64,000 bases of DNA from the NCBI GenBank assembly GCA_963751345.1, contig CAVVUS010000018.1, positions 224,001-288,000 on the forward strand, in the 5' to 3' direction. Position numbers and translations under genes: made by a program. This document shows positions 816-18,056 of the stretch, one piece after another (position 1 is the stretch's first letter; each line of letters begins with the position of its first letter). Under the pieces are notes generated by a model, which was not told where the DNA came from, did not search any database, and saw nothing but the letters and a program-made list of their open reading frames with translations. The DNA is from an uncultured Chloroflexia bacterium. Lineage in GTDB: Bacteria > Chloroflexota > Anaerolineae > B4-G1 > SLSP01.

Positions 816-1553
816 ATGGATCTCGATGATCTTCCCAAGGTTCGTTCAACCCGCGACCAGGTGGAGAGCACGCTCTCCCAGCTCATCCTGCAGCAGCAGC
901 CTGGCGATCAGTTGCCCCCCGAGCCCGAGCTAGCCAGACAACTGGGTGTATCCCGTCCAACGCTTCGCGAGGTTCTGCGTACCTTTGCCGAGCGAGGGCT
1001 TCTGGTGCGCCGGCAGGGGGTGGGCACGTTCATCGCATCGCGCCTGCCCGTTCTTGATGCCGGCCTCGAGGTTCTGGAGAGCCTGGAGTGCATGGCGGAC
1101 CGGCTCGGATTGGCTACCGAGATGACGCACCTCAACGTTGTGGAACGTTCGGCAACCGACCCGGAACTCGACGGGCTTGGGCGTGCCGCGCCGACGCAAG
1201 TGCTCGCCGTAAAGCGCGTCATCTCCATAGAGGATGTACCCGTGGCGGATCTCACCGACATCGTGCCCCTTGAGGTCATCTGTAGATCGGACCTGGGGAG
1301 CGACTTCCGGGGCTCGGTACTCGATGTGCTGCTTACCCATGGCTCTCCGGTGTTGAGTACCTCGCGGACCGAGATCTTGGCGGAGCTAGCCGGGCAGGAC
1401 GATGTGCTGCGTTTGCAGGTTGAGCAGGGCGCGCCGTTGTTGGTGCTGATCGCTCAACTCTTCAGTTACGACGACCATGTGGTCGACTACTCGGTGAGCA
1501 GGTTTGTGCCGGGATACTTCAGGTTCCACGTGATGCGGAGGATAGTCAGGTAG
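816..1553 (+). CDS. GntR-family (HutC/UTRA) transcriptional regulator
   Basis: wHTH LPPEPELARQLGVSRPTLREVL...RRQGVGTF plus a C-terminal UTRA-like domain. GGAGG RBS precedes ATG 816; the upstream ATG at 798 overlaps the -10 box. Confidence 0.92.
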   Translation: MDLDDLPKVRSTRDQVESTLSQLILQQQPGDQLPPEPELARQLGVSRPTLREVLRTFAERGLLVRRQGVGTFIASRLPVLDAGLEVLESLECMADRLGLATEMTHLNVVERSATDPELDGLGRAAPTQVLAVKRVISIEDVPVADLTDIVPLEVICRSDLGSDFRGSVLDVLLTHGSPVLSTSRTEILAELAGQDDVLRLQVEQGAPLLVLIAQLFSYDDHVVDYSVSRFVPGYFRFHVMRRIVR

Positions 1554-1646
1554 TCTCGTAGTCAGATGGTCATATAGTCAAGCTAATTGAGCTGAGTTAT
1601 CTGACTATCAGTACCAGACTACCGGACTACTAGACTGCTAGACCAA
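1541..1646. repeat. Inverted pair of degenerate 8-bp tandem arrays (TAGTC / GACTA cores)
   Basis: TAGTCTCG TAGTCAGA TGGTCATA TAGTCAAG ... CCAGACTA CCGGACTA CTAGACTG CTAGACCA. Confidence 0.65.
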
Positions 1647-1675
1647 ACAACTTTACAAACAGGAGGTTTTGAACA

Positions 1676-2656
1676 ATGCGTAGTTTTACGGGTCGTGACA
1701 TTTTGTCTTTGAAAGAGTTTGAACGGAACGAGTTCTTCCACGTCTTCGACGTTGCCACCGAGCTGGAGCCGATTGCGCGCGAGCGCCGCAACGTGGATAT
1801 GCTCGCCGAGAAAACGCTGGTGACGGCATTCTACCAGCCATCGACGCGCACGCGCTTGGCACACGAGGCCGCGATGCACCGCCTGGGTGGGCATGTCAAC
1901 GGCTTCTCCGACGCCAAGATGACGCGGGCGGGCGACTGGTATCAGGAGTCCATCAAGGACACGGTGAAGATGTTGGAGTTCTACGGCGACGCGATCGTGA
2001 TGCGCCACTTCCAGCAGGGCGCGCCGCACGAGGCTGCGAAGTGGGCCAGCGTGCCGATCATCAACGGCGGCGACGGGTGGGGCGAGCATCCCACGCAGAT
2101 CCTCACCGACCTTTACACAGTGCTGCGCGAGAAAGGCCACATCGATGGCCTGCGCTGGCTGGCCGTCGGCGATATGCGGATGCGCACCATGCACTCCCTC
2201 GGCTACGCGCTGACGCAGTTCGATTGCCCGATCACGTTTGTGGCCCCGCCTGCGGACGCACTCTTCGACAACTCGCCCGACATGCAGATGCCGGAAAACT
2301 ACAAGGCCGATTTCCGGCAGTACTCGCTCGACTTCACGGAAGCCGAGCACGTCGAGCAAGCCATCGCCGACGCGGACGTGATCCTGGTCGAGCCGGTGAT
2401 GCAGCCGGACTACACCAAGGCCCGCGACGAGCGCAAAGGTGACGCTGGCTTCACCCCCGACAATTACAAGATCACGCGCGAGTTGCTGACGCAGAAAGCC
2501 AAGTCCGACGCGATCTTGCTGCACTCGCTGCCGCGCATGGACGAAGTTCCGACCGACGTGGACATCACCCGCTGGTCGCGCTACTGGCAGGAAGCCTTCA
2601 ACGGCGTCGTGATGCGGATGGCACTGCTGGCGCTCGTCCTCGGTGCTATGGAGTAA
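1676..2656 (+). CDS. Aspartate-carbamoyltransferase-like carbamoyltransferase with a non-canonical acceptor site
   Basis: FYQPSTRT, VMRH, INGGDGWGEHPTQ and HSLP motifs; lacks the ATCase RxQxER aspartate-binding motif (has EPVMQPDY). Confidence 0.88.
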   Translation: MRSFTGRDILSLKEFERNEFFHVFDVATELEPIARERRNVDMLAEKTLVTAFYQPSTRTRLAHEAAMHRLGGHVNGFSDAKMTRAGDWYQESIKDTVKMLEFYGDAIVMRHFQQGAPHEAAKWASVPIINGGDGWGEHPTQILTDLYTVLREKGHIDGLRWLAVGDMRMRTMHSLGYALTQFDCPITFVAPPADALFDNSPDMQMPENYKADFRQYSLDFTEAEHVEQAIADADVILVEPVMQPDYTKARDERKGDAGFTPDNYKITRELLTQKAKSDAILLHSLPRMDEVPTDVDITRWSRYWQEAFNGVVMRMALLALVLGAME

Positions 2657-2677
2657 ATCCGGCCTGTAGGAACTGCA

Positions 2678-2719: not shown

Positions 2720-2751
2720 CTATCGTGAACTTGCTAGAGGAGACACTCACT

Positions 2752-3732
2752 ATGATAACCAGTTTGCGCGGCCGAGATTTGATTGGTGACCTCGACTTCT
2801 CCAAAGAAGAGGTCGAAACGGTACTGGACGTGGCCTGGGATCTGAAGCGCAAGCGAGCGTTGGGCGAGCCACACCCACTGTTGCGTGACAAGACCTTAGG
2901 CATGTTGTTCTTCTTCAGTAGCACGCGCACCCGCTGTTCTTTTGAGTCGGGGATGGCGCAACTCGGTGGGCACGCCGCCTTCATCGAGAGCAAGACCACC
3001 CAGATCTCGCACGGCGATACCGCTACCGAGATCGGCGAGATCCTGGGGCGCTACTTCGATGGTATCGCCATCCGCCACTGCGACTGGAAGGTGGGCAATG
3101 CGTACCTCAACTACGTCGCCAAAGCCTCTCGCGCACCGGTACTGAATATGCAGTGCGATATCTACCACCCCTTCCAGTGCTTGGCCGACCTGATGACGAT
3201 CAAGGAGAAGAAGGGCCGCGATCTCCGCAAGAAGAAGATTGTCGTCTCCTGGGCCTATGCCTCCTCCTATCTTAAGCCGATCTCTGTGCCACAGTCGCTC
3301 ATCCTCCAGATGCCGCGCTTTGGCATGGACGTGACCCTGGCCTATCCGGAGGAGTTCATGCTGATGCCGGATATCGTCGATGAGGCCAAGAGCCAGGCTC
3401 GCAAGTACGGGACGAGCTTCGAGATCGTCCACGACATGGGGGAAGGCTTCGAGGATGCTGACGTCGTCTATGCCAAGTCCTGGGGGCCTCTGCTGACGAC
3501 GGACGATCCGGCCGAGGGGAAGAAGCTGCAGGACAAGTACCAGGACTGGATCACGGATGCCGCGAAGATGCGGCTCGCCGCCCCTGACGCGATCTACATG
3601 CACCCTCTTCCCGCTGATCGAGACATCGAAGTCACCAGCGAGGTGATGGATGGACCGCAGTCCGTGGTCTTCGACCAGGCCGAGAACCGGCTGCACGCCC
3701 AGAAAGCAGCGATGGCCCTCACTATGTGGTAG
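2752..3732 (+). CDS. Knotted-type carbamoyltransferase (YgeW / N-acetylornithine transcarbamylase-like)
   Basis: SSTRTRCSFE, NMQCDIYHPFQ, SWAYASSYLKPISVPQS (YgeW-like), YAKSWG, HPLP, QAENRLH; GAGGAG RBS before ATG 2752. Confidence 0.88.
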   Translation: MITSLRGRDLIGDLDFSKEEVETVLDVAWDLKRKRALGEPHPLLRDKTLGMLFFFSSTRTRCSFESGMAQLGGHAAFIESKTTQISHGDTATEIGEILGRYFDGIAIRHCDWKVGNAYLNYVAKASRAPVLNMQCDIYHPFQCLADLMTIKEKKGRDLRKKKIVVSWAYASSYLKPISVPQSLILQMPRFGMDVTLAYPEEFMLMPDIVDEAKSQARKYGTSFEIVHDMGEGFEDADVVYAKSWGPLLTTDDPAEGKKLQDKYQDWITDAAKMRLAAPDAIYMHPLPADRDIEVTSEVMDGPQSVVFDQAENRLHAQKAAMALTMW

Positions 3733-3750
3733 TCCGAAAGGAGATCCGGA

Positions 3751-4761
3751 ATGAAATCCGCGCAGACGCAGGAGTTCGCGCACACCGAGGCCCGCCGTGA
3801 GGGGGGGCCTGTGAGGCGCACAGGCGTAGTCGCCATCGGCGGCAACTCGCTGATCTTGGACCCGCGGCACCAGACTGTACAGGACCAATACCGGGCAGCT
3901 AGGGAGACCTGCCACCACATCGCAGATATGATTGAGGAGGGGTGGGATATTGCCATCGGCCATGGTAACGGTCCACAGGTAGGTTTCATCCTGCGACGTT
4001 CGGAGATCGCTGCGAAGGTGGCGGGGATGCACGAGGTGCCCCTGGATGCGTGTGGGGCAGACACGCAGGGCGCTCTAGGCTACGCTCTCCAGCAGAATCT
4101 CTGCAACGAATTCCGGCGTCGGGGTATCCACAAGAGCGTGGCCACCGTGGTCACACAGGTGCGCGTCGATCTCGACGATCCGGCGTTCAGTAACCCATCG
4201 AAGCCCATCGGCGGCTTCATGGAAGAGGAAGCGGCACGCGATCGTGCGGCACGCGATGGCTGGTCTATCGTGGAGGACGCTGGGCGAGGGTGGCGACGCG
4301 TCGTAGCGTCGCCTTTGCCTCAGGAGATCGTGGAGCTGAAGGTTGTCGAGTCGTTACTCCACGCCGGGGTCATCACGATCACGGTGGGTGGTGGGGGCAT
4401 TCCGGTCGCGCCAAATGCCGACGGCGACCTTGTCGGGGTGCCTGCCGTCATCGACAAGGACTTCGCGTCATCGCTGTTGGCGCAACGCATCCATGCTGAC
4501 CTGTTCCTGATCTCCACCGCCGTGGAACAGGTCTATGTCAACTACCGCAAGCCTGATCAGCGGGCGATCGATCGCATGACCGTCGCTGAGGCGAAGCGAT
4601 ATCTGGCGGAGGGGCACTTTGCCAAGGGCAGTATGGAGCCCAAGATCCGCGCGATCATCGGTTATCTGGAGGCGGGCGGGAAGCTGGCCATCATCACCGA
4701 TCCGCCTCACATCACGGCGGCACTGCAGGGCAAAACCGGTACGTGGGTGGTGCCCGACTAG
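3751..4761 (+). CDS. arcC: Carbamate kinase
   Basis: VVAIGGNSL, HGNGPQVG, PSKPIG, GWRRVVASP, GGGGIPV, VIDKDFAS, GSMEPK. Confidence 0.95.
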   Translation: MKSAQTQEFAHTEARREGGPVRRTGVVAIGGNSLILDPRHQTVQDQYRAARETCHHIADMIEEGWDIAIGHGNGPQVGFILRRSEIAAKVAGMHEVPLDACGADTQGALGYALQQNLCNEFRRRGIHKSVATVVTQVRVDLDDPAFSNPSKPIGGFMEEEAARDRAARDGWSIVEDAGRGWRRVVASPLPQEIVELKVVESLLHAGVITITVGGGGIPVAPNADGDLVGVPAVIDKDFASSLLAQRIHADLFLISTAVEQVYVNYRKPDQRAIDRMTVAEAKRYLAEGHFAKGSMEPKIRAIIGYLEAGGKLAIITDPPHITAALQGKTGTWVVPD

Positions 4762-4784
4762 TGCTCGGGCAAGAGGAGCGTTCG

Positions 4785-6035
4785 ATGGATCATATCCGTG
4801 GTTTTCGATGCATGCTCTGCGGTGCGGAGTACGGGGTCGGCGAGATCGACTACGTCTGCCCGCTCCATGGCGACGACGGCATCGTGGACGTGCTCTACGA
4901 CTACGACCTGATCCGGGCGACGATCAGCCCGGAGACGTTGTCCTCGAGCCGGGAGATGAGCATCTGGCGCTACAAGGCGCTCTTGCCGGTGGCTGCGGAT
5001 GCCGTGGTGCCGCCGCTGCGTGTGGGGTGGACTCCCCTCTATGAGGCGCCGCGCCTGGCTGAGGGCCTTGGCCTGGCGCACCTATGGGTCAAGGATGATG
5101 GCGTGAACCCCACGGCCTCCTTCAAGGATCGGGCTTCGGCACTGGCCGTCGTGAAGGCTCGGGAGGCCGGGGCCGAGGTGATCACGACCGCCAGCACCGG
5201 CAATGCGGCCGCAGCGCTCGCGGGGCTCTCGGCCAGCGTCGGCCTGCAGGCTGTCATCTTCGTGCCGCGCTCCGCACCTCCTGCCAAGATCGCGCAGCAC
5301 CTGATCTACGGTGCGCGCGTGCTGCTGGTCGATGGGAGCTATGATGACGCGTTCGATCTGACCCTTCAGGTCGCGCGAGAGTTTGGCTGGTACAACCGCA
5401 ACACCGCCTATAATCCCTTCATGACCGAAGGGAAGAAGACCGCCGCCTACGAGATCTGGGAGCAGGCGGGAGGGCAGGTGCCGGACCGGATCTTCGTCCC
5501 CGTGGGCGATGGATGCATCATAGGGGGAATCCACAAGGGTTTCAGGGATCTCCTGGCGCTGGGCTGGACCGACCGCATGCCGCGGCTGATGGGCATCCAG
5601 GCAGAAGGCTCTTCAGCGTTGGTGGATGCCTACGAACGGGGGCTTGCTCCCACTGAGATGCGGCCGATGCCCGCCTCCACGATTGCCGATAGTATCAGTG
5701 CGGCGCTACCACGAGACCGGGCCAAGGCACTGAAGGCCGTGCGCGACACGGATGGGAGCTTCCTGTCGGTGACCGATGAGGAGATCCTGTCAGCTATCCC
5801 CACCGTGGCCCGGAAGACGGGGGTTTTCTGCGAGCCTGCAGCGGCGGCTTCATACGCCGGACTTGCCCGGGCTGTCCGCGAGGGGCTCATCGATCCGCAG
5901 GAGCGGATCGTGCTTCTGCTGACCGGATCGGGTCTCAAGGATATCGCCAGCGCGATGAAGACGGTGTCTGCTCCCCCTGTCATCCCTGCGCAACTGAATG
6001 CGGCGAGAGAGGCCCTGGCGAAGCTTGGTGTCTAG
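4785..6035 (+). CDS. Threonine-synthase-like PLP enzyme (fold type II) with an N-terminal Zn ribbon
   Basis: CMLC...CPLH, NPTASFKDR (PLP lysine), ASTGNAAAA, PVGDG, EPAAAA, TGSGLKD. Confidence 0.88.
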   Translation: MDHIRGFRCMLCGAEYGVGEIDYVCPLHGDDGIVDVLYDYDLIRATISPETLSSSREMSIWRYKALLPVAADAVVPPLRVGWTPLYEAPRLAEGLGLAHLWVKDDGVNPTASFKDRASALAVVKAREAGAEVITTASTGNAAAALAGLSASVGLQAVIFVPRSAPPAKIAQHLIYGARVLLVDGSYDDAFDLTLQVAREFGWYNRNTAYNPFMTEGKKTAAYEIWEQAGGQVPDRIFVPVGDGCIIGGIHKGFRDLLALGWTDRMPRLMGIQAEGSSALVDAYERGLAPTEMRPMPASTIADSISAALPRDRAKALKAVRDTDGSFLSVTDEEILSAIPTVARKTGVFCEPAAAASYAGLARAVREGLIDPQERIVLLLTGSGLKDIASAMKTVSAPPVIPAQLNAAREALAKLGV

Positions 6036-7955
6036 ATGTTTGCGCCGGAGACGATGATGACGGACTATGAGGATCTCAAGCGTCGGTTAGCCAGGGGATG
6101 GAACACGTGGAATACGCGCAGCGTGTTATCCCACGTGCTCCTGCCTGAGGCGTTTGCTCTGAACCTCGGGCTGAAGGAATATGCAACCCGGAGGTACCTG
6201 GGAGAAGCGCTCATCGGGCGGCGAGGGGATGGGGACGAACGAATCCACCCGGGTCCCCGTTCCTACGATGGCGCGTTTACCGAGCTCTCGCTGACCTGGC
6301 AGGGCGTTGAAGTGCTCATCCAGAGCGCGGTTATCCCATCGCCCGAGGGCGCAGCGCAGGACGACCTGGTGCTCCTGGTCACGCCGCACACGAGCCATCG
6401 AAAGGCGCCTCTGTTAGTCGTCGAGCCCGGAATCCTGTGGAATCGACCCGGTCACGTATTGCGCCAGGGCGAAACGCTGGTGTGGGCCGGCGGATCGGGA
6501 GACTCGGCCTCCGTGGTCGCCTACGGGACCTGTGCTTCTGTGGTGGATCCCTATGTCCCTGTTCAGACTCCGTATCTCGCTCTGCCCCTGAATGGCGCCG
6601 TTGGGGTCTCCACGGGGAAGCCCCGGTCGGTTGCCGAGATCCAGACCGTGGTGGCGGAGCGCCGGGCAGAGCGGACGGCAGCCCTCGCCACGTTCGGGGA
6701 GCTTGCGGAGGTCTACGCGGCTATCCAGACGTGCCTGGCCTGGGACACGATCTACGAGCCGGAACACGACCGGGTCGTCTCCCCCGTCAGTCGCATCTGG
6801 AACGTCGACTGGGGCGGCTACGTCCTCTTTGACTGGGACACCTACTTCGCGGCCTATCTCGCGTCTCTGGACAACCGGGATCTCGCCTATGCCAATGCCA
6901 TCGAGATCACGCGCGAGAAGACGGAGCGTGGGTTCATCCCCAATTTCGGCACCGTCATCGATCTCAAGAGCCGGGACCGCTCTCAGCCGCCGGTCGGCTC
7001 GCTCGTGATCCGCGAGCTCTACCGCCGCTTTAGGGATCGGTGGTTGTTGGAAGAGGTATTCGACGACTTGCTCGAGTGGAACCGCTGGTGGGATGCCCAC
7101 CGCAGATGGGGCGAGCTTCTCTGCTGGGGTTCTGATCCCTACGCCCCGCTTGCCGATGCTCACTGGGAGGTGACCGGCGTCGGCAGCCGGTTGGGAGCTG
7201 CTCTGGAATCTGGGCTGGACAACTCCCCGATGTACGACGACGTGCCCTTCGACGGGCGCACGCACTTGATGGCACTGGCAGACGTTGGCCTGAACGGGAT
7301 GTACGTGATGGACTGCGATGCCCTGGCCGAGATCGCCGGGGTGCTGGGGAGGGCTGAGGCCGAGCGCGAGCTACGGGCACGCGCCGATCGGTTCCGTCAG
7401 GCCCTGGTGGCCCTGTGGGATGAGGATACCGGGCTCTTCCATAATCGCCATATGGACACGGGGAGGTTCAGCCATCACCTGTCTCCGACGAACTTCTACG
7501 CGCTTCTCGGGCGAGCCGCAACCCAGGCTCAGGCCGAACGCATGGTCGCAGAGCACTTCTACGACCCTGGGGAGTTCTGGGGAGAGTGGATCCTTCCCTC
7601 GATCGCGCGCAACGACCCCGCATACCCCGAGCAGACCTATTGGCGTGGCCGCATCTGGGCCCCGATGAACTTGCTCGTCTACCTGGGCCTGCGGCGCTAC
7701 GATCTACCACAAGCACAAACTGATCTGGCAAACAAATCAAAAGAGCTCTTGCTGAAAGAGTGGCTGGAGAACGGCCACGTTCACGAGAACTACAACGCCG
7801 ACACGGGTGAAGGCTGCGATAAGCCCAACAGCGACCGTTTCTACCACTGGGGCGGCCTCCTGGGTCTGATCGCGTTCATTGAGGCCGGTGTCCTGGAAGG
7901 ACCCGAGCAACCGCTGAACACCAGCTCACCACCGCCCAGCCGGCGTAACCCCTGA
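6036..7955 (+). CDS. (alpha/alpha)6 glycoside hydrolase, GH63/MGH1/trehalase-like
   Basis: FDWDTYF, DRSQPP, ESGLDNSPMYD, YWRGRIWAPMN, HENYN...G.G motifs. Confidence 0.85.
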   Translation: MFAPETMMTDYEDLKRRLARGWNTWNTRSVLSHVLLPEAFALNLGLKEYATRRYLGEALIGRRGDGDERIHPGPRSYDGAFTELSLTWQGVEVLIQSAVIPSPEGAAQDDLVLLVTPHTSHRKAPLLVVEPGILWNRPGHVLRQGETLVWAGGSGDSASVVAYGTCASVVDPYVPVQTPYLALPLNGAVGVSTGKPRSVAEIQTVVAERRAERTAALATFGELAEVYAAIQTCLAWDTIYEPEHDRVVSPVSRIWNVDWGGYVLFDWDTYFAAYLASLDNRDLAYANAIEITREKTERGFIPNFGTVIDLKSRDRSQPPVGSLVIRELYRRFRDRWLLEEVFDDLLEWNRWWDAHRRWGELLCWGSDPYAPLADAHWEVTGVGSRLGAALESGLDNSPMYDDVPFDGRTHLMALADVGLNGMYVMDCDALAEIAGVLGRAEAERELRARADRFRQALVALWDEDTGLFHNRHMDTGRFSHHLSPTNFYALLGRAATQAQAERMVAEHFYDPGEFWGEWILPSIARNDPAYPEQTYWRGRIWAPMNLLVYLGLRRYDLPQAQTDLANKSKELLLKEWLENGHVHENYNADTGEGCDKPNSDRFYHWGGLLGLIAFIEAGVLEGPEQPLNTSSPPPSRRNP

Positions 7956-7971
7956 CCTGAAAGGCAGTCGA

Positions 7972-9438: not shown

Positions 9439-9451
9439 GTGGACTCTCCTT

Positions 9452-9487
9452 ACCTTCCGGGAAGGTTCCGGCCTTCCCGGAAGGTTT
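9452..9487. repeat. Inverted REP-like doublet; may also act as a terminator or mRNA stabiliser
   Basis: ACCTTCCGGGAAGGTT...GCCTTCCCGGAAGGTTT directly after the PLP-enzyme stop codon. Confidence 0.65.
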
Positions 9488-9552
9488 CGCGTCCTAAGGC
9501 GAAAGCTCTGTCGCTGATTTGCGCGAACACTTTACACGGTATACTAGCTGGT

Positions 9553-9592
9553 AGCGTTCGAGCGTCTCGGCGTTCGAACGTTCAAACGTCTT
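9553..9592. repeat. Five degenerate 8-bp tandem repeats (CGT core)
   Basis: AGCGTTCG AGCGTCTC GGCGTTCG AACGTTCA AACGTCTT. Confidence 0.65.
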
Positions 9593-9610
9593 TTGCGTCA
9601 AGGTGAGGGT

Positions 9611-10547
9611 ATGGAGCCACGTATATCCGTCGTCGCGCCCGTGTACAATGAAGAGGCGCTGATTCGCGAGTTCCACCAGCGGATGTCTATCGTCATGGAG
9701 CGATTGGGCGAGCCATGGGAATTGATTCTGGTAGACGATGGTAGCCGCGACCAGACGCCGGAACTGCTCGACGCTATCTACGCCGATGACCCGGAACACG
9801 TGGTGGTCGTGCACTTCGCTCGCAATTTCGGCCATCAACTGGCGATCACGGCCGGTATGGACTATGCGCGCGGCGCGGCTGTCATCACCATCGACTCCGA
9901 CCTCCAGGATCCGCCCGAGGTGATACCGGACCTGGTCAAACGCTGGCAGGAGGGCTACGAGGTCGTCTATGCCGTCCGGGCGGAGCGTGAGGGTGAGACG
10001 TGGTTCAAGCTATTCACGGCTGATCTCTTCTACCGGCTGATCCAACGTCTAACCAGTGTGAAAATACCCGATGGAGGCCGGTGATTTTCGTCTCCTGGAC
10101 CGCAAGGCGTTGGCTTATCTTAGGTCGATGCGGGAGCACGATCGCTTCGTGCGCGCGATGACGTCGTGGGTAGGATTCCGCCAGGTTGGCGTGCCCTATC
10201 GCCGGCAGGCGCGGAAGGCCGGCACGACCAAGTATACGCTGCGGAAGATGGTTCGTCTGGCGGTGGATGCCGTCACCGGTTTTTCCGTTGTGCCCCTCAA
10301 GTTCGCCCTTTGGTCCGGCGCAGCAGCCGTACTCGGCGGCCTGGTCTTGGCGTTGGTGTTGACGATCATTCGGTTAGGTGGAGAGGTCCCGCTTGCCGGC
10401 CAAGGGCTGACGGCCAGCTTGGTTCTCTTCGTTGGAGGCGCGCAACTGCTGACGATTGGCGTCCTCGGGGAGTATGTAGGACGGATCTACGATGAGGTGC
10501 GGCAGCGCCCGCTCTACACGGTCCGCGAAGTCAAGCGTAAGGATTGA
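9611..10547 (+). CDS. GT2 glycosyltransferase, GtrB/DPM1-like (frameshift near 10070)
   Basis: VVAPVYNEE, VDDGSRD, RNFGHQLA, IDSDLQDPPE; the second ORF continues with GDFRLLDR, two TM helices and LGEYVGRIYDEV.RP.Y. Confidence 0.9.
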
Positions 10548-12013: not shown

Positions 12014-13839
12014 AGCGCACCGTTCCGGAGAGGGAGGCCGCCGAGGTCACCCTCTATATGCGGACTTATTACTCACTGTTGCGCACGACGGACGCGGTCC
12101 AGATCCGCACGCTGGAGGAGACCCACTCGGCGATGTCGCCGTCGCTCCACCCCCACGCCGGCTCGATGGATCCCGACATGTCGGCGCTCATCTACACGAG
12201 TCTGCGCCTCTCCCGGTTCATCTTCGACGTGCGGCAGGTGGTGTTGGGGCAGAGCGAGGAGGTCTTCCGCCGGCGTGGATATCCCGATGTAGAGTCTTGG
12301 GAAGTCGCAGTTGCGCCCGCACGCCGGCGCCGTATGTTCTACGATGGCGACGAGACCCTGGCCGTCTATATCGCCAGCATCTCCGACATCGACGACATCG
12401 TTCCGATGTTGACGGCGTTCCAGATCGAGTGGAACAAGATGCACACGCTCATCGGCATGCAGGCGGGTATGACAGAAGACCTGCAATCGTGTGCTGCCAC
12501 CCATTCGTGGGGGAGCCGGATCTGCACGGAGATCCGAACCGTCCTTCGCCTGTCCGAAGACGATTGGGGGCGGTTGGAGACCGTTTGGGGGGACGATCTG
12601 CCCGATCTGCTGGCCCACATTGCAGAAGAGCGCAAGAGGATGTCCGTCACGTTGCTGGCAGGATCCTACGTCGAGTACCATCGCGCCACGCAGAAGTGGT
12701 GGGACCGGGTGAGGGACCTTGCTCAGGGCGCCAACCTTGCGAAGGTTTCCGAACCCTTGGCCCGCAGTGCTTCTGGGCAGGCTTCGCAAGGTTCACAGGA
12801 CAGGCAAGGTTCGAATGCTCCGGCCTCTCTCGATCTCTCGGAGCGTCCCATCTACTTTGTCTCCAGCAACACGCACAGTCTCGTCAATATGGTGACCTGC
12901 TTTGCGCAGCGCCACGAGGCGCGCCTGATGGACTACGTCGCGTCGAAGGTGGATCTGGAGCTCGTCGAGGAGGCCGAGAGGATTCAGCAGCACCAGGTCC
13001 CGAGCAACTGGTCGAACTTCCTCTACTACGTTCTCAAGAAGTATCTTCAGACGGAGGAGGGGCAGGATCTGCTGGAGGTGCGCGATGCTTTCGAGGCCGA
13101 ACGAGGTGTGACGCGCATCCCGAGCCAGCACACCTTCGATCTTGAGGTGCAGCTCATCGATCTTTCGAAGTTGGATCGAGCCTATCTGGACACGCGCCTT
13201 GTCGATAGCCTGTCACTTGCACGGCTCAAAGCCACCAACGCGCTCATCCTCAATATCGACTACCCGCTGGGCTTTGCTGCCTATCATCTCTTGTCCCGTA
13301 TTGCGGTCAACGTTGGGGAGCTCCGCGGAGCCTATGTGATCGGTAAGGCGGCGACGCTGAACGGCCGTATCGGCGATGTGTTGATCCCCAACGTCGTCTA
13401 CGATGAGCATTCCCTCAATACCTATCTGTTCAACAACGTCTTCACGGCGCAGCACGTCGCCCCGTTCCTGGTCTACGGTGACGTTCTGGACAATCAACGT
13501 GCCATCGCCGTGCACGGCACGTTTCTCCAGAACCGATCTTACATGGAGTCGTTTCTGCGGCTCGGCTATACGGATGTTGAGATGGAGTCGGGCCCCTATC
13601 TGTCGGCCCTCTACGAGTTCATCCGGCCCAGGCGCTATCCCGAGGACGAATTGGTCAACCTCTACCCGGTGCCCTTCGAGATCGGCATACTGCACTACGC
13701 GTCCGATACGCCGATGAGCAAAGGGCGCAACCTTGGGACCCATAATCTCTCGTACTACGGCATGGATCCGACCTACGCGACGACCGTGGCCGTGTTGCGG
13801 CGGATTCTATCGCTGGAAACCAGAACGTTGGCACGTTGA
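12010..13839 (+). CDS. Conserved hypothetical protein (DUF6909-like, from recall) with C-terminal nucleoside-phosphorylase-like motifs
   Basis: ATGA overlap with the upstream gene; starts MKRTVPEREAAEVTLYMRTYYSLLR; motifs IGKAATLNGRIGDVLIP, DVEMESG and YASD. Confidence 0.75.
   Translation: MKRTVPEREAAEVTLYMRTYYSLLRTTDAVQIRTLEETHSAMSPSLHPHAGSMDPDMSALIYTSLRLSRFIFDVRQVVLGQSEEVFRRRGYPDVESWEVAVAPARRRRMFYDGDETLAVYIASISDIDDIVPMLTAFQIEWNKMHTLIGMQAGMTEDLQSCAATHSWGSRICTEIRTVLRLSEDDWGRLETVWGDDLPDLLAHIAEERKRMSVTLLAGSYVEYHRATQKWWDRVRDLAQGANLAKVSEPLARSASGQASQGSQDRQGSNAPASLDLSERPIYFVSSNTHSLVNMVTCFAQRHEARLMDYVASKVDLELVEEAERIQQHQVPSNWSNFLYYVLKKYLQTEEGQDLLEVRDAFEAERGVTRIPSQHTFDLEVQLIDLSKLDRAYLDTRLVDSLSLARLKATNALILNIDYPLGFAAYHLLSRIAVNVGELRGAYVIGKAATLNGRIGDVLIPNVVYDEHSLNTYLFNNVFTAQHVAPFLVYGDVLDNQRAIAVHGTFLQNRSYMESFLRLGYTDVEMESGPYLSALYEFIRPRRYPEDELVNLYPVPFEIGILHYASDTPMSKGRNLGTHNLSYYGMDPTYATTVAVLRRILSLETRTLAR
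12731..12813. repeat. Composite REP-like element inserted in frame in the CDS
   Basis: AACCTTGCGAAGGTT 12733-12747, CTTCGCAAGGTT 12782-12793, GCAAGGTTCG 12804-12813; encodes a low-complexity linker ANLAKVSEPLARSASGQASQGSQDRQGS. Confidence 0.6.
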
Positions 13840-13891
13840 CACGTTGGCCCGTTTTCACGTTCAAACGTCTGAACGTGAAAATGTGTCAACG
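13824..13891. repeat. Eight degenerate 8-bp tandem repeats (ACGT core)
   Basis: AACGTTGG CACGTTGA CACGTTGG CCCGTTTT CACGTTCA AACGTCTG AACGTGAA AATGTGTC; supplies the TGA stop at 13837-13839. Confidence 0.7.
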
Positions 13892-13912
13892 CGCATCACG
13901 CACAAAGGATTA

Positions 13913-16259
13913 ATGGCTATGAGCGAAAGCAAGCTTGCGGGAGGAAGATACGTCGGCAGGGCGTTGCCGCGGTTTGAGGCGCCGGACAAAGTGACGGGCG
14001 ACGCACTCTACCCCGGCGACATCGAAATGGACGGTATGCTGACGATGAAGCTGCTCTTCGCAGGACGCCCCCACGCACGCGTCGTGCGCGTCGATACGTC
14101 AGAGGCAGAGGCACTGCCCGGAGTGGTTGCCGTCTTCACTTCCGCTGATGTGCCGGTCAACGAGTATGGCCTGCAGTACCCCGACCAACCGGTCCTCTGT
14201 GGCCCGCCGGGACAGTGGACGAAACTTGAGAAGGCCGGGACCGACGTCGTGCGCTTTGTTGGGGACCAGGTTGCCGCCGTGGTTGCCGAGGATGAGGACG
14301 TGGCGGAACATGCACTGGACTTGATTCGGGTGACCTATGAAGATCTGCCGCCGGTCACCGATCCCCGCGAAGCGCTTAAGTCTGGTGCGCCGGTGCTGCA
14401 TCCTGCCTATCCCGGCATCTCCATCCACCCGGAGTTGGTCTTTGAGGGTAACCTCGTCTCGCGCCACACGATCCTGCGTGGGGATGTCGAATCGGCGTTG
14501 CTGGAAGCCGATGTGGTCGTGGAATCCACGTACGAGGTGCCGGGGCAGGAGCACGCTTACCTGCAGCCGGAGGCGGGTCTGGCGTACGTCGATGATGAGG
14601 GCCGGCTCACGGTGGTGGTCGCGGGCCAATGGGCTCACGAGGATCGCGCGCAGATCGCACACGCCCTGGATTTGCCCGAGGACGGAATCCGCGTGATTTA
14701 CCCCGCGATTGGCGGGGCCTTCGGCGGACGAGAGGATATGTCCGTGCAGATCGTGTTGGCGCTGGCGGTTCAACGCCTGGGGCGGCCGGTCACGATCACC
14801 TGGAGCCGCGAGGAATCTATAGTCGGCCATCACAAGCGGCATAGCCTCTTTGCCCGCGCGCGTTGGGCTGCGACACGCGACGGGAAGACTGCTCGCGGCC
14901 GACTGTGAGGTGGTGGCGGACGCGGGGGCCTACGTCTATACCACCAACAAAGTGATGGGCAACGTCTTGCTGTCGATCAACGGCCCTTACCGCATCCCCA
15001 ACGTTCGCACGAGCGTGCTGGCGGCCTACACCAACAATGTGCCGGGTGGCGCATTTCGGGGTTTTGGGGCGCCGCAGGGCAATTTCGTCGCCGAATCGCA
15101 GATGAACAAATTGGCAGAAGCTCTGGACATAGATCCTGTGATGCTGCGCCTGCAGAACCTCGTCGCCGACGGTGAGCCGATGCCGTGGGGTAAACCTCTG
15201 ACCGACGACGCTCGTGGTCTTCGTCAGAGCCTGATCGCTGCGGCGGAAGCTGTGGGATGGCATCGAGCCGGAGATGCAGACCTCGGTGGAGCTGCCGCCG
15301 GTGAAGTTCGAGGCTCGGGAGAGGAAAGCGAGATCTGGATTGCCCCGGAGTTGGGCGTGCGACGTGGGGACCCTCCCTATCTTCGGCGTGGGTTGGGGAT
15401 CGCGCTGGCCTTTAAGAACGTGGGGTTCTCGTTTGGGTATCAGGATAATGCCTGGGCGGGTGTCGAGCTGTACGGAAAAGCCGAGATCGAGCGGGTGATT
15501 GCCTATGCTGCGAGTGCTGACGTGGGACAGGGAGCCAGGACGGTTGTCCGGCAGATGTTCGCTGAGGCCCTCGACGTCGATATCGACTTAGTCGAGCTTC
15601 GCCCGGTGGATACGACCTTGACCGGCAGCTCGGGCTCCTCCTCGGCCTCGCGCATGACCTTTATGATCGGCAATGCGATCCGCGGCGCGGCTGAGGGAGC
15701 GCTCAACAAATGGCGCGACGAGGAGCGCCCCGCCAAGGCAGAGTACACCTACCTCTCGCCCAAGACGACGCAGATCGATGCGGAGACGGGCTACGGACAT
15801 CCGAATTTCTCCTATGGCTATGCCGCCATTGCCGCTGAGGTCGCGGTCGACCTGCAGACGGGCGCCTGCATCTATCCGCGGATCGTGTGTGCTAACGATG
15901 TGGGTCGGGCGATCAATCCCAGACTCGTCGAGGGACAGGTGGAAGGCGGCGTCGTTCAGGCGCTCGGTTGGGCCACGACGGAGCATTTCGTGCAGCGTGA
16001 TGGGATACCGCTCTCCCGGTCGTTCAGCACCTACCTTATGCCCACGATCGAGGACATTCCCGAGCAGGTCAGGTCGATTCTCATCCAGAACCCGGAGGTG
16101 CACGGGCCGTGGGGGGCCCGCGGCATGGGGGAGATGCCCTTCATCGCCGTGGCCTCGGCGCTCCACCATGCACTGCGGCAAGCCACCGGTGTCTGGTATA
16201 ATGCCTTCCCGTTCAACTCTGAACGAATTCTTCGGGGGCTCAGTGGGACTCGCTCCTAG
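13913..16259 (+). CDS. Xanthine-dehydrogenase-family molybdopterin-binding subunit (frameshift near 14887)
   Basis: DKVTGDALY, QEHAYLQPE, IGGAFGGRE, GAFRGFGAPQ, DVGQGA, GQVEGG, GARGMGEMP. Confidence 0.92.
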
Positions 16260-16273
16260 GTAGGGGGAAGCAA

Positions 16274-16329
16274 TGCTGGATGGCGAATGCTGGATACCGG
16301 ATTTCGGAAGCCGGATGGTAGATTGAAGA
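16274..16329. repeat. Eight degenerate 7-bp tandem repeats (TGCTGGA-like)
   Basis: TGCTGGA TGGCGAA TGCTGGA TACCGGA TTTCGGA AGCCGGA TGGTAGA TTGAAGA. Confidence 0.65.
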
Positions 16330-18056
16330 TGCGTAGAGCCGCATCCCTTCACCACGCTCATTTCCTGCCTCTGCGGGCGCTCTCTCTGCTGGTCCTTGTG
16401 ATGCTCCTCGGCGGCTGCGCGGATCTCGCGCAGTTGTTGCCCGCGGGGGGCGGCGAGACCCCGGTGCCGGCATTCATCGCGCCCACTGCCGAGGCCGCCT
16501 ATCCTCCTACTGCGTCGACCGCCGCGCGCATCCAGGACCGGGGGGCTATCGTGGTTGGCGTGCGTTACGATCTCGAACCATTTTCTTATATCAGTGGAGA
16601 CAGCGAATTAGCCGGCCTGGATATTGACCTGATCCGGGAGCTCGCCCGGCGTTGGCTTGGCTCCTCTGATGCCGTCCGCTTTCGCCAGGTGCGTTCGGAC
16701 TCGGCCTACCAGTACCTTGCCGATGGCTCCGTCGACCTTGTACTGGCAGGACTGGTGCACACGCAAGATGCCGAGGCCCGCGCCGATTTCAGCCCGCCCT
16801 ACTTCGCCGATGGCATGGCGATTCTGACGTTCCCCGATAGCGGTATCACGGGTCTCGCCGATCTGGGCGCGAAGCGCGTTGGGACTGTGACGTGGACGGG
16901 GAGTGCCGATGCGCTTGCAGCCTCGGCTCCGGTCACGCCCACCTATGTTTCCTATGGGAATTACTTCGACGTCGTGGAGGCGCTTCGAACACGCCAGATC
17001 GACGCCTACGTCGACGAGCATCATCGCCTTGAGCGCGCGCGGCGCTCTGTCACCGGATCTATCCTTGTGGGACAGTGGACTCAAGAGCCGGTGGCGATGA
17101 TATTCCGGCAGGACGATCCATTCTTCTACAACCTTGTTGAGTTGACCTTCCTCGATATGGCAGCCGATGGTACCCGGGATGCCCTCTACGACCGTTGGCT
17201 CCCCGGTACATCGCCACCATCGTTGATTCGCCTTCCGGGGAGCGCACCGGCCCCCGCGCTTTCCGAATCACCGCCGGAACTCAGCACGCTCGATGTCGTG
17301 GGACGCATCCGGGATCGCGGGTCGCTTGCGGTCGGGTACTTCCAGGATCGGTGGCCTTACAGTGCGGACCGGGCCGACGGTGTCCCGACCGGGTTTGAGC
17401 TCAGGTTGCTGGAGCGGATGGCCGAGCTGTGGTTGGGGAGTACCTCAGCCGTGACGTTTGTGCCTGTCGTCAGTGAGGCCGACGCCTTGCAGCGTCTCGA
17501 TCGGGGTGAGATAGATCTACTCGCGGGCGACTGGGTGCATACCCGCGATGCTGAACTGCGCTATGATTTCTCGATTCCCATCCTCGACGATGGGGTGAGT
17601 ATTCTGTCCCTGGCGTCGAATCCTGTAGACGACTTGACGCAACTCAGCGGCCAATCCGTTGGGGTGGTGGCCGGCGGCAGCGCCGAAGCCGCGGTGCCCA
17701 CTCTGTCACAGGGGATAGGGCTCTCCGCGGAGGGTTATCCTACCTTCGATGCTGCATTAGCCGGGCTGCAGGCAGGTGAGGTGGCCGCTTTGCTCACGGA
17801 ACGGCTTCCTGCGCTCGGTGTTGCCTTCCGGGAAACCGGGTATGTTGTCACCGACAGCAGGTACACCTTCCGGCCTGTCGCCTACGTACTTCCGCAGGGC
17901 GACTCTGACTTCCGCGATCTCGTCAACCTGACACTGATGGCCCTCCAAGCGCAGGGTGGTTACCAGGAGCTCTACAGCCTCTGGTTTGATGACCCTGTGC
18001 CCGCGCTCGTTGCGTGGCCGGGTCAGGCCGCGATCTCACTCTCGGTCGGGCCGTAG
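16329..18056 (+). CDS. Lipoprotein with two tandem family-3 (polar amino acid) solute-binding domains
   Basis: Lipobox LLGGC; two related halves (RIQDRGAIVVG...GLDIDL and RIRDRGSLAVG...GFELRL), each ending LY..W. Confidence 0.85.
   Translation: MRRAASLHHAHFLPLRALSLLVLVMLLGGCADLAQLLPAGGGETPVPAFIAPTAEAAYPPTASTAARIQDRGAIVVGVRYDLEPFSYISGDSELAGLDIDLIRELARRWLGSSDAVRFRQVRSDSAYQYLADGSVDLVLAGLVHTQDAEARADFSPPYFADGMAILTFPDSGITGLADLGAKRVGTVTWTGSADALAASAPVTPTYVSYGNYFDVVEALRTRQIDAYVDEHHRLERARRSVTGSILVGQWTQEPVAMIFRQDDPFFYNLVELTFLDMAADGTRDALYDRWLPGTSPPSLIRLPGSAPAPALSESPPELSTLDVVGRIRDRGSLAVGYFQDRWPYSADRADGVPTGFELRLLERMAELWLGSTSAVTFVPVVSEADALQRLDRGEIDLLAGDWVHTRDAELRYDFSIPILDDGVSILSLASNPVDDLTQLSGQSVGVVAGGSAEAAVPTLSQGIGLSAEGYPTFDAALAGLQAGEVAALLTERLPALGVAFRETGYVVTDSRYTFRPVAYVLPQGDSDFRDLVNLTLMALQAQGGYQELYSLWFDDPVPALVAWPGQAAISLSVGP

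What the first reader, a model, noticed from the sequence alone, without database searches (positions are those of the whole stretch)
816..18056. Candidate new anaerobic purine/ureide fermentation pathway with two different carbamoyltransferases feeding carbamate kinase
Seen: one co-oriented cluster behind a GntR operator-promoter encodes an ATCase-like carbamoyltransferase, a knotted YgeW/AOTCase-like carbamoyltransferase, ArcC, two fold-type-II PLP enzymes, an Xdh-family molybdoenzyme, a nucleosidase-like unknown and a solute-binding protein. Known: the E. coli ygeW-dpaL-ygeY-hyuA-yqeA plus xdh locus degrades urate/purines anaerobically via ureido-propionate intermediates, using one carbamoyltransferase, a hydrolase (YgeY) and DpaL. 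No ygeY, dpaL or arginine deiminase is in this window. Inference: both ureido groups of a diureido intermediate could be removed by phosphorolysis (the alpha-N group by the ATCase-like enzyme, the side-chain group by the knotted enzyme). That would double carbamoyl-phosphate/ATP yield, with a ThrC-like or the long PLP enzyme replacing DpaL.
Basis: partly seen in the sequence, partly recalled or inferred. Interest (0 to 1): 0.8.

Follow-up and report, generated by a model that had tools for sequence, protein, structure and literature searches.

The report
Two-carbamoyltransferase purine-breakdown ATP module
An uncultured Anaerolineae bacterium carries a regulated gene cluster that most likely makes ATP from the urea-like groups left after oxygen-free purine breakdown, using two different carbamoyltransferases where E. 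coli uses one plus a hydrolase.

Summary
The genes are there as described, with corrections. GT2, the Xdh Mo subunit and gyrB are each split by a frameshift; for the first two a single-base indel was shown. A hairpin after the CysK-like gene suggests two transcription units.

CT1 and CT2 are not the genome's pyrB and argF. True copies, carB, an SsnA and a hydantoinase lie elsewhere. No dpaL, arcA or aguA was found.

CT1 is a pseudo-ATCase that lacks the aspartate RxQ motif. CT2 shares YgeW's active-site blocks.

CT1 is 82-96% identical in the best 80 of 545 Chloroflexota loci. CT2 follows it in 71 of 72 assessable loci and carbamate kinase in 67 of 70. Neighbours include adenine deaminase (47/80), a Bmp-type ABC ATPase (41/80), Xdh-family genes (12/80), and true YgfK, SsnA and Se-XDH in a few loci. 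This ties the module to the 2,8-dioxopurine pathway.

The predicted CT1/YgeY exclusion holds among 41 relatives (10 CT1, 19 YgeY, 0 both). It fails phylum-wide, where 43 of 80 CT1 loci also carry YgeY.

Double phosphorolysis is therefore plausible but unproven. This scan reported the same module before on other genomes.

Verdict: a new variant of a known kind.

The parts
772..799 (+). Perfect sigma-70-type promoter (TTGACA-16-TATAAT) overlapped by the palindrome TGACATGTCA and TGTCTGACA. Likely an autoregulated gntR promoter. The -10 box overlaps the annotated ATG at 798, so the true start is probably a little downstream.
   Evidence: relatives align to GntR from residue 7
798..1553 (+). GntR/HutC-family regulator (GntR HTH + UTRA effector domain)
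   Evidence: PF00392 62.8 bits, PF07702 57.7 bits; upstream of CT1 in 70 of 80 loci
1541..1636 (+). Inverted repeats in the gntR-CT1 spacer (GATAGTCAGGTA / TATCTGACTATC and a longer 31-nt pair). Candidate operator; shares a TCTGAC core with the gntR promoter region.
   Evidence: function inferred
1676..2656 (+). CT1: pseudo-ATCase (ATCase-like carbamoyltransferase paralogue). Proposed phosphorolysis of an alpha-N-carbamoyl (2-ureido) group.
   Evidence: activity inferred
2749..3732 (+). CT2: short YgeW-like carbamoyltransferase (ORF opens at 2686; probable start 2749). Proposed phosphorolysis of the other ureido group.
   Evidence: activity inferred
3751..4761 (+). Carbamate kinase (ArcC/YqeA type), the only one found in the genome
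   Evidence: TIGR00746 366.7 > 358.25; 46% identical to E. coli YqeA
4743..6035 (+). ThrC-family PLP enzyme with an N-terminal Cys-rich extension. Candidate stand-in for diaminopropionate ammonia-lyase.
   Evidence: in 30 of 80 CT1 loci; role inferred
6036..7955 (+). GH63/MGH1-like glycoside hydrolase. Variable passenger: an APC transporter or an MBL hydrolase sits here in other genomes.
   Evidence: 0 of 80 CT1 loci
7972..9438 (+). Long (488 aa) CysK-like fold-type-II PLP enzyme of an uncharacterised family
   Evidence: in 22 of 80 CT1 loci
9452..9485 (+). Perfect 14-bp inverted repeat (hairpin) in the 155-bp gap after the CysK-like gene. Possible boundary between two transcription units.
9593..10547 (+). 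GT2 polyprenyl-phosphate glycosyltransferase (PgfS/ArnC-like) with 2 C-terminal TM helices, split by a 1-base insertion near 10070
   Evidence: intact in L016, L017 and L025
10562..12013 (+). Xdh-family FAD-binding + 2Fe-2S fusion subunit
12010..13839 (+). DUF6909 protein: N-terminal domain plus a C-terminal NP-I (nucleoside phosphorylase / AMP nucleosidase) fold. Its start overlaps the Xdh stop by 4 nt.
13733..16259 (+). Xdh-family molybdopterin subunit, split by a 1-base insertion near 14886. Below every equivalog cut-off (pucD is the closest).
   Evidence: single genes of 754-789 aa in relatives
16287..18056 (+). Lipoprotein-like solute-binding protein with two SBP_bac_3 (polar amino acid type) domains
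18194..19234 (+). Multi-TM membrane protein of no known family, conserved next to the SBP in congeners

Best explanation
The first operon (gntR, CT1, CT2, carbamate kinase, ThrC-like, CysK-like) is a Chloroflexota version of the lower, ATP-yielding part of the reductive (2,8-dioxopurine) purine and urate pathway.

Proposed steps. A diureide such as 2,3-diureidopropionate loses one ureido group by phosphorolysis on the YgeW-like CT2. It loses the remaining alpha-N-carbamoyl group by phosphorolysis on the pseudo-ATCase CT1. In E. coli, and in 19 congeners, that second step is done hydrolytically by YgeY. Carbamate kinase turns each carbamoyl phosphate into ATP, giving up to 2 ATP per purine. One of the two fold-type-II PLP enzymes then deaminates 2,3-diaminopropionate to pyruvate in place of the missing DpaL.

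The GntR/HutC repressor gates the operon. The second unit (GT2, Xdh, DUF6909, Xdh, SBP) is a lineage-specific add-on that may supply or import N-heterocyclic or amino-acid-like substrates.

Shown: gene identities, paralogy, motif changes, synteny and co-occurrence. Inferred: every substrate, the order of cleavage, the ATP yield and the roles of the PLP enzymes. I put about 0.8 on 'ATP-yielding ureide/purine catabolic module' and about 0.45 on the specific double phosphorolysis.
For: (1) Extra paralogues. The genome has a true pyrB (365 bits, in pyrC-pyrB-pyrF-pyrD), a true argF (433 bits) and carB.

(2) CT1 keeps STRT, R105, HPTQ and R167. It loses the ATCase RxQ motif and the K84 loop, has HSLP for HPLP and carries an 8-residue insertion. 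The genome's own PyrB keeps all of these.

(3) CT2 shares YgeW's SWAYxxSYxKPxSVPQ, KSWxP and GxGNxY blocks and lacks the OTC DxxxSMG motif. It is the best match to E. coli YgeW in this genome (35% over 357 aa). The window's kinase is the best YqeA match (46%).

(4) No arcA, aguA or dpaL was found in the genome, and dpaL was found in 0 of 41 relatives.

(5) Among 41 relatives, the slot before CT2 holds CT1 in 10 and a true YgeY (457-473 bits, cut-off 321.5) in 19, and never both. Family f2 instead has two tandem CT2-like genes plus CK. Every variant seen therefore keeps at least two decarbamoylases beside one CK.

(6) In the best 80 of 545 CT1 loci, CT2 is next in 71 of 72 assessable and CK in 67 of 70. 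Adenine deaminase is present in 47/80, a second amidohydrolase in 45/80, a Bmp-type ABC ATPase in 41/80 and Xdh-family genes in 12/80. True YgfK occurs in L125 (933 > 835) and L067, true SsnA in L064 (521 > 444) and Se-XDH in L065 (945 > 830).

(7) Published pathway: YgeW + YqeA give ATP from 2,3-diureidopropanoate, and YgeY hydrolyses the remaining ureido group (bioRxiv 10.1101/2025.04.24.650524, sections 6-7 as passages; PMC12507026, Results part 1 of 3).

(8) Precedent for a catabolic pseudo-ATCase beside carbamate kinase: the Rubrobacter UGTCase (PMC4016543, sections 6-7 and passages).
Against: 43 of 80 CT1 loci also carry YgeY (37 adjacent), so CT1 and YgeY often coexist and may have different substrates.

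The genome keeps a YgeY-family paralogue elsewhere.

The upper pathway is not assembled here. No YgfK hit was found. The window's Xdh is not XdhD- or Se-XDH-like, and the best XdhD match is on contig C30. SsnA and hydantoinase are isolated singletons here, and SsnA was an isolated singleton in the 3 relatives inspected.

CT2 scores far below the YgeW cut-offs (191-201 vs 453-500) and slightly better against OTC models.

The ThrC-like protein passes the threonine synthase cut-offs. It travels with a GT2 glycosyltransferase in several genomes, which no purine logic explains.

The pathway intermediates are reported as D-configured (R), whereas ATCase, ThrC and CysK relatives usually act on L-amino acids (passage from the bioRxiv paper; PMC12990295, part 1 of 2).

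Phosphorolysis of ureido groups is thermodynamically unfavourable (PMC12507026; PMC4016543, passages).
Confidence: 0.5

Rival explanations
1. The module degrades ureides, but CT1 acts on a different carbamoyl compound from the one YgeY acts on. Candidates are allantoate/ureidoglycine (as for the Rubrobacter UGTCase), N-carbamoyl-aspartate or beta-ureidopropionate from pyrimidines, or a ring-closed ureido intermediate. The cluster would then handle several ureides, and the second diureidopropionate step would still be hydrolytic, through the unlinked YgeY-family paralogue.
For: YgeY, CT1 and CT2 coexist in 43 of 80 loci. A YgeY-family gene exists on C22. A pseudo-ATCase with ureidoglycine carbamoyltransferase activity is published (PMC4016543). 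The SBP and, in other genomes, an APC transporter are of the amino-acid type.
Against: CT1 and the high-scoring YgeY never co-occur among the 41 relatives, and the one present always sits directly upstream of CT2. YgeY presence flips at least 10 times on the CT2+CK tree while CT1 stays, which fits redundancy. No allantoinase, uricase or dihydroorotase was among the products identified at these loci: two relatives' loci were scanned for families across most of their length and others only in part, and these enzymes were not among the tblastn queries. The C22 paralogue lies among unrelated sugar genes.
Confidence: 0.27
2. The second half (GT2, Xdh, DUF6909, Xdh, SBP, membrane protein) is functionally unrelated to the carbamoyltransferase operon, and its adjacency is a lineage-specific accident.
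For: A hairpin and a 155-bp gap separate the halves. DUF6909 and the GH63-like gene occur in 0 of 80 CT1 loci. DUF6909 is flanked by Xdh in only 2 of 30 loci. The window's Xdh is not of the XdhD or Se-XDH type.
Against: The order CysK-like, GT2, Xdh, DUF6909, Xdh, SBP is kept in the four genus loci examined, at 60-98% identity. L053 keeps it only as far as the start of the Xdh FAD/Fe-S gene, where the locus ends. Xdh-family genes lie near CT1 in 12 of 80 other loci. An NP-I fold enzyme inside an Xdh operon fits nucleoside or purine processing.
Confidence: 0.4
3. This is an arginine deiminase-type or agmatine deiminase-type pathway: citrulline or carbamoylputrescine phosphorolysis plus carbamate kinase. 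The homologous Thermoflexus genes were annotated this way.
For: PMC8129789 (passages) files two 'ornithine carbamoyltransferases' and a carbamate kinase under the ADI pathway. One relative (G040) has aguA upstream of CT1. CT2 scores best against OTC models.
Against: No arcA or aguA was found in this 93%-complete genome, and aguA occurs in 0 of 80 CT1 loci. CT2 lacks the ornithine-binding DxxxSMG motif. All OTC and PTC scores are below cut-off. A true argF exists elsewhere.
Confidence: 0.05
4. The genes are anabolic isozymes: carbamate kinase supplies carbamoyl phosphate to a second ATCase and a second OTCase.
For: CT1 is 3 bits below the ATCase equivalog cut-off (233.9 vs 236.95). CK-type carbamoyl phosphate synthesis is known in some archaea (recalled; also named in the PMC6022934 abstract listing).
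Against: carB, pyrB and argF are all present elsewhere. The substrate-binding motifs are changed. The genes sit under a GntR/HutC catabolic-type regulator with YgeY, deaminases and transporters as neighbours.
Confidence: 0.03

Closest known systems
E. coli / Clostridium sporogenes reductive urate (2,8-dioxopurine) pathway: xdhD-ygfM, ygfK, ssnA, hyuA, ygeW, yqeA, ygeY, ygeX (PMC12507026; bioRxiv 10.1101/2025.04.24.650524)
   Same: A YgeW-type carbamoyltransferase sits directly before a carbamate kinase. A fold-type-II PLP enzyme lies downstream. An Xdh-family enzyme is nearby. YgeY occupies the neighbouring slot in congeners. YgfK, SsnA and Se-XDH are linked to the same core in some Chloroflexota.
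   Different: A second, ATCase-derived carbamoyltransferase is present. There is no YgeY in this locus and no DpaL in the genome or in 41 relatives. ThrC-like and long CysK-like enzymes are present instead. CT2 lacks YgeW's two large insertions and scores below its cut-offs. YgfK was not found. SsnA and HyuA homologues are unlinked. The regulator is GntR rather than the sigma-54 activator YgeV.
Pseudo-ATCases of Barba et al. 2013 (PMC4016543), especially subgroup 2 (Nocardioides sp. JS614, next to a ygeW homologue, xdhABC and hyuA) and subgroup 1 (Rubrobacter Rxyl_2847, ureidoglycine carbamoyltransferase beside carbamate kinase)
   Same: An ATCase paralogue sits beside a genuine PyrB in the same genome. 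It keeps STRT and HPTQ, has HSLP in place of HP[LG]P and has lost the RxQ motif. It lies next to a YgeW-like gene, carbamate kinase and Xdh genes.
   Different: Motif 4 reads K[AS]R (alignment A1) or PV[MV] (A5). It matches none of the three published subgroup signatures (AI[AS]/SIA, GX[SC], VXP). The clade is very large and tightly conserved in Chloroflexota (545 loci, the best 80 at 82-96% identity). Its phylogenetic placement against the published subgroups was not tested.
Arginine deiminase and agmatine deiminase pathways (catabolic OTCase/PTCase + ArcC)
   Same: The logic is the same: phosphorolysis of a ureido group to carbamoyl phosphate, then substrate-level ATP synthesis by carbamate kinase.
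   Different: No deiminase gene was found in the genome. CT2 lacks the ornithine-binding motif. Two transferases of different subfamilies are present.
AMP nucleosidase and NP-I nucleoside phosphorylases (for DUF6909)
   Same: The C-terminal roughly 230 residues fold like NP-I enzymes, and AMP nucleosidase likewise has a large N-terminal domain.
   Different: No sequence-level match to any solved structure. Catalytic residues were not checked. The N-terminal roughly 400 residues match nothing identified.

Membership tests
Aspartate carbamoyltransferase PyrB (for CT1) | Scores over the equivalog cut-off (TIGR00670, 236.95 bits) | tested here: not met
   233.9 bits, and 212.8 vs 263 for NF002032. 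The genome's real PyrB scores 365.4.
Aspartate carbamoyltransferase PyrB (for CT1) | Aspartate-binding RxQ motif (E. coli R229/Q231), K84 loop and HP[LG]P motif (motif table of PMC4016543; residue roles recalled) | tested here: not met
   TRVQKER becomes TKARDER (A1) or EPV[MV]Q plus an insertion (A5). The 80s loop becomes TRAGDWYQE. HPLP becomes HSLP.
Aspartate carbamoyltransferase PyrB (for CT1) | Pyrimidine-biosynthesis gene context, or sole copy in the genome | tested here: not met
   pyrC-pyrB-pyrF-pyrD lies on contig C11. CT1 sits behind GntR with CT2 and CK.
Pseudo-ATCase (Barba et al. 2013) | ATCase-like paralogue coexisting with a genuine ATCase, with STRT and HPTQ kept and motifs 3 and 4 altered | tested here: met
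   criteria read in PMC4016543 section 6
Pseudo-ATCase (Barba et al. 2013) | Assignment to published subgroup 1, 2 or 3 by the motif 3/4 signature and by tree | tested here: inconclusive
   HSLP fits subgroups 2 and 3. Motif 4 (K[AS]R or PV[MV], depending on the alignment) fits none. No published member sequence was available for a tree.
Knotted carbamoyltransferase YgeW (for CT2) | Scores over the equivalog cut-off (TIGR03316 500; NF005538 453) | tested here: not met
   190.7 and 200.9 bits
Knotted carbamoyltransferase YgeW (for CT2) | Shared active-site sequence blocks that differ from OTCase | tested here: met
   The SWAYxxSYxKPxSVPQ, KSWxP and GxGNxY blocks are shared with E. coli YgeW and absent from ArgI/ArgF. 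CT2 is the best YgeW match in the genome.
Knotted carbamoyltransferase YgeW (for CT2) | Trefoil knot in the fold | not tested
   No model of CT2 was made. YgeW's two long insertions are missing.
Ornithine carbamoyltransferase (for CT2) | Equivalog cut-off (TIGR00658 280.85) and the DxxxSMG ornithine motif (motif recalled) | tested here: not met
   246.2 bits. AKSWGPL stands in place of DVWVSMG.
Carbamate kinase ArcC | Equivalog cut-off (TIGR00746 358.25) | tested here: met
   366.7 bits, and NF009007 389.4 vs 266
Diaminopropionate ammonia-lyase DpaL/YgeX (for the two PLP enzymes) | Equivalog cut-off (TIGR03528 532.25) | tested here: not met
   The best match in the genome is 32.8 bits, on the ThrC-like gene. 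0 of 41 relatives have a match.
Threonine synthase (for the ThrC-like enzyme) | Equivalog cut-offs (TIGR00260 167.1; NF006050 303) | tested here: met
   231.7 and 303.6 bits. Two further ThrC-like genes exist in the genome, so family membership does not settle its role here.
2,8-dioxopurine pathway gene set | XdhD/DOPDH-type molybdoenzyme, YgfK (or UacX / F420 reductase), SsnA and HyuA present and linked | tested here: not met
   The window's Xdh is below the TIGR03313 and TIGR03311 cut-offs. There is no YgfK hit. SsnA (478.6 > 455.5) and hydantoinase (432 > 393) are present but unlinked. An F420 reductase was not searched for.
NP-I nucleoside phosphorylase/nucleosidase fold (for DUF6909) | Structural similarity of the C-terminal domain | tested here: met
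   Foldseek vs PDB: 2guw, 1rxc, 6po4 and 9mg9, E about 4e-6 to 1e-5, TMt 0.33-0.64. The model has mean pLDDT 74. Catalytic residues were not examined.

The most novel reading that the evidence does not exclude
Chloroflexota run a fully phosphorolytic end of the 2,8-dioxopurine pathway. A pseudo-ATCase takes the alpha-ureido group and a short YgeW-like enzyme takes the side-chain ureido group of 2,3-diureidopropionate, so that one carbamate kinase harvests two ATP per purine. Non-DpaL PLP enzymes (ThrC-like and a 488-aa CysK-like family) finish the carbon skeleton. YgeY is kept in many genomes as a hydrolytic bypass. The division of labour between an ATCase-type and an OTC-type active site would also settle the published dispute over which ureido group YgeW cleaves first.
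Probability: 0.33. Interest if true: 0.75.

Novelty: new variant of a known kind. Interest (0 to 1): 0.6.

Why it matters
The anaerobic urate pathway was solved only in 2025. Its authors and a commentary leave open which ureido group is cleaved first and how widely the enzymes vary (PMC12990295, part 1 of 2 read).

This module occurs in at least 545 Chloroflexota species genomes. Databases label its enzymes as biosynthetic ATCase, OTCase, threonine synthase and cysteine synthase (names; PMC8129789, passages).

If both ureido groups are phosphorolysed, purine fermentation would yield twice the substrate-level ATP. That would change energy budgets for abundant sediment, digester and hot-spring Anaerolineae.

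It would also assign functions to a pseudo-ATCase clade and to two uncharacterised PLP families, and it would correct systematic mis-annotation.

My searches for 'pseudo-ATCase', 'diureidopropionate' and variants and for Anaerolineae with carbamate kinase, carbamoyltransferase and purine found no paper proposing this. The supplements of the two 2025 papers could not be seen and may show Chloroflexota clusters.

Tried and rejected
(1) A simple 'CT1 replaces YgeY' swap. This was my reading after (10 CT1, 19 YgeY, 0 both among 41 relatives). I dropped it as a general rule when 43 of 80 wider loci showed both.

(2) An upper pathway next to SsnA. The SsnA neighbourhoods in the own genome and in 3 relatives hold unrelated genes. 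The hydantoinase neighbourhood is also unrelated.

(3) The XdhD-like locus on C30. It holds an Fe-S subunit, DUF4914 and a Cu-oxidase_4 gene, and no uricolytic genes.

(4) DUF6909 as a general Xdh partner. Only 2 of 30 loci show Xdh flanks within 1.5 kb.

(5) A sequence match of DUF6909 to solved structures. Nothing was found (best E 0.89). 'DUF6909' occurs in no paper of the library.

(6) Taxonomic range of CT1 beyond Chloroflexota. The representative search gave full-length relatives at 68-71% and then 42-48% identity.

(7) Protein Atlas for the CysK-like enzyme. The window's sequence was not held. A 81%-identical stored homologue gave only unnamed PLP clusters in Spirochaetota, Chloroflexota, Pseudomonadota and Bacillota. 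This is a lead only.

(8) The promoter/terminator scan as a whole is at chance level (4 found vs 4.5 expected; 15 vs 11.3). Only the 12/12 promoter at 772-799 stands out.

(9) No complex prediction, no CT2 or CT1 model and no knot test were run.

Full report
WHAT IS THERE

The window is G000:C18:224001-288000 of a 49-contig, 93%-complete genome. Public names of near-identical proteins place it in the Anaerolineae, phylum Chloroflexota.

On the + strand between 798 and 19234 lie these genes:
- a GntR/UTRA regulator
- an ATCase-like carbamoyltransferase (CT1)
- a second carbamoyltransferase (CT2)
- a carbamate kinase
- a ThrC-family PLP enzyme
- a GH63/MGH1-like hydrolase
- a 488-aa CysK-like PLP enzyme
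- a GT2 polyprenyl-phosphate glycosyltransferase
- an Xdh FAD/2Fe-2S fusion
- DUF6909
- an Xdh Mo subunit
- a double SBP_bac_3 lipoprotein
- a multi-TM protein

GT2 and the Xdh Mo subunit are each split by one extra base relative to the 96%-identical relative G002. gyrB and ligA in the window, and trmD and carB elsewhere, are split too. I read these as assembly errors, not pseudogenes.

A perfect sigma-70 consensus overlapped by palindromes precedes gntR. A perfect 14-bp hairpin in a 155-bp gap follows the CysK-like gene, so there are probably two transcription units.

NOT THE HOUSEKEEPING ENZYMES

tblastn finds five carbamoyltransferase genes in the genome:
- The one on C11 is a true PyrB (365 bits) inside pyrC-pyrB-pyrF-pyrD.
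- The one on C24 is a true ArgF (433 bits).
- A third OTC-like gene lies on C30.

carB is present.

CT1 scores 233.9 against a cut-off of 236.95 for ATCase. It keeps the carbamoyl-phosphate motifs. It changes the aspartate-binding RxQ motif, the 80s loop and HPLP (to HSLP), and it carries an 8-residue insertion. The genome's own PyrB keeps all of these.

These are the criteria by which Barba et al. defined 'pseudo-ATCases' (PMC4016543, sections 6 and 7 read). One of those enzymes is a proven ureidoglycine carbamoyltransferase beside a carbamate kinase. Another, in Nocardioides, lies next to a ygeW homologue and xdhABC.

CT2 is below every cut-off (OTC 246-259, AOTC 250, YgeW 191-201). It nevertheless shares three sequence blocks with E. 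coli YgeW that OTCases lack, and it has no DxxxSMG motif. It is the best YgeW match in the genome, and the kinase is the best YqeA match.

REST OF THE GENOME

- SsnA (478.6 > 455.5) and a D-hydantoinase (432 > 393) exist, but as isolated genes.
- A YgeY-family paralogue lies on C22 among sugar genes.
- No DpaL, ArcA or AguA was found.
- No YgfK match was found, and the best XdhD match is on C30, not in the window.

RELATIVES

In 41 genomes of the same order, a CT2 orthologue (74% identity or more) is present in 30.
- Immediately upstream lies a CT1 orthologue in 10 genomes.
- A true YgeY (457-473 bits, cut-off 321.5) lies there in 19.
- No genome has both.
- One contig (G031) is too short to tell.

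Family f2 has two tandem CT2-like genes before the kinase instead. DpaL was found in 0 of 41 genomes and SsnA in 35 of 41, always unlinked.

The wider scan changed that reading.

THE WIDER SCAN

CT1 patterns hit 598 stretches in the species-genome collection, and 545 were confirmed. The best 80 are all Chloroflexota at 82-96% identity. Counts for those 80 loci follow:

- CT2 follows CT1: 71 of 72 assessable
- Kinase follows: 67 of 70 assessable
- YgeY adjacent to CT1: 37
- YgeY elsewhere in the locus: 6
- YgeY absent: 35
- YgeY undetermined: 2
- ThrC-like enzyme: 30
- CysK-like enzyme: 22
- Xdh-family genes: 12
- Adenine deaminase: 47
- Second amidohydrolase: 45
- Bmp-type ABC ATPase: 41

NCBIfam confirms a true YgfK in L125 (933 > 835) and in L067 (820, cut by the contig end). 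It also confirms a true SsnA in L064 (521 > 444), a Se-dependent XDH in L065 (945 > 830) and YgeY in L125 and L064.

I built a CT2+CK tree from 58 loci, those with unbroken full-length matches out of the 89 given. On it, YgeY presence changes at least 10 times (shuffles: mean 19.2, minimum 13) and CT1 presence changes 2 times.

HOW IT MOST LIKELY WORKS

The published pathway ends as follows. 2,3-Diureidopropionate is cleaved by YgeW to carbamoyl phosphate, which YqeA converts to ATP. YgeY then hydrolyses the second ureido group, and YgeX deaminates diaminopropionate (PMC12507026, Results part 1; bioRxiv 10.1101/2025.04.24.650524, section 7 and passages).

The two papers disagree on which ureido group goes first (PMC12990295, part 1 of 2).

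Every Chloroflexota variant seen here keeps at least two decarbamoylases beside one kinase. This genome has CT1 and CT2 and no YgeY in the locus.

I therefore propose that both groups are phosphorolysed. CT1, ATCase-derived and built for alpha-N-carbamoyl amino acids, would do the YgeY-type step. One of the PLP enzymes would replace DpaL. All substrates are inferred.

Against the proposal:
- YgeY often coexists with CT1.
- The upper pathway is scattered or missing in this genome.
- The intermediates are reported as D-configured.
- The ThrC-like enzyme passes threonine synthase cut-offs.

THE SECOND UNIT

The DUF6909 model has an NP-I fold. DUF6909 occurs in 38 of 151 sampled Chloroflexota genomes. 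It is flanked by Xdh subunits in only 2 of the 30 loci examined. The Xdh-DUF6909 arrangement is therefore a lineage-specific add-on whose link to the first operon is uncertain.

NOVELTY

This is a variant of a known pathway, and a pseudo-ATCase next to a YgeW homologue has a published precedent. My searches found no paper proposing double phosphorolysis or describing this Chloroflexota module. Supplements were closed.

This scan has reported the same module on other genomes. Those notes agree with my reading but are not independent evidence.

Noticed in passing
window 21443-22270 (-) and 22795-23895 (+): A CAP12/Pycsar-type TIR effector-domain protein (PF10137, 116 bits) lies next to an HTH_3 + M78 (ImmA/IrrE-like) protein. 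This is a possible small defence or mobile island just after gyrB.
   Followed up: no
window 19254-21198, 44171-46247; G000 C10 (trmD), C14 (carB), C22 (YgeY-like): Essential genes (gyrB, ligA, trmD, carB) are each split into two overlapping or adjacent ORFs. Single-base indels therefore look like a general fault of this assembly.
   Followed up: partly
L103, L111, L117 (ThrC-like, GT2, CysK-like); window 4743-10547: A PgfS/ArnC-like GT2 glycosyltransferase travels with the ThrC-like and CysK-like genes in several genomes, even when they are 5-8 kb from the kinase. No purine logic explains this.
   Followed up: partly
G000 C30:312175-313077 (L003:7175-8077, -): A third, divergent OTC-like carbamoyltransferase (242 bits, below cut-off) lies next to a 402-aa protein of no family and signal peptidase I.
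   Followed up: no
G000 C30:160939-167958 (L049): The genome's best XdhD-like molybdoenzyme sits with an Fe-S subunit, a DUF4914 protein (1023 bits) and a Cu-oxidase_4 (YfiH/LACC1-type) gene. This is another uncharacterised Xdh context.
   Followed up: partly
L058:16003-16428 and 14868-15353: In one relative, a PemK/MazF-like toxin gene and a DUF3368 gene are inserted between the ThrC-like gene and the APC transporter of the cluster.
   Followed up: no
L053:15303-17579, L058:16473-18755: An APC-family amino-acid permease fused to a universal stress protein domain occupies the slot where the window has the GH63-like gene. It hints at import or exchange of an amino-acid-like ureide.
   Followed up: partly
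L020:19044-19895 (G040): A true agmatine deiminase gene (470 bits, cut by the locus end) lies 424 bp upstream of CT1 in one relative only. aguA occurs in 0 of the 80 wider loci.
   Followed up: partly
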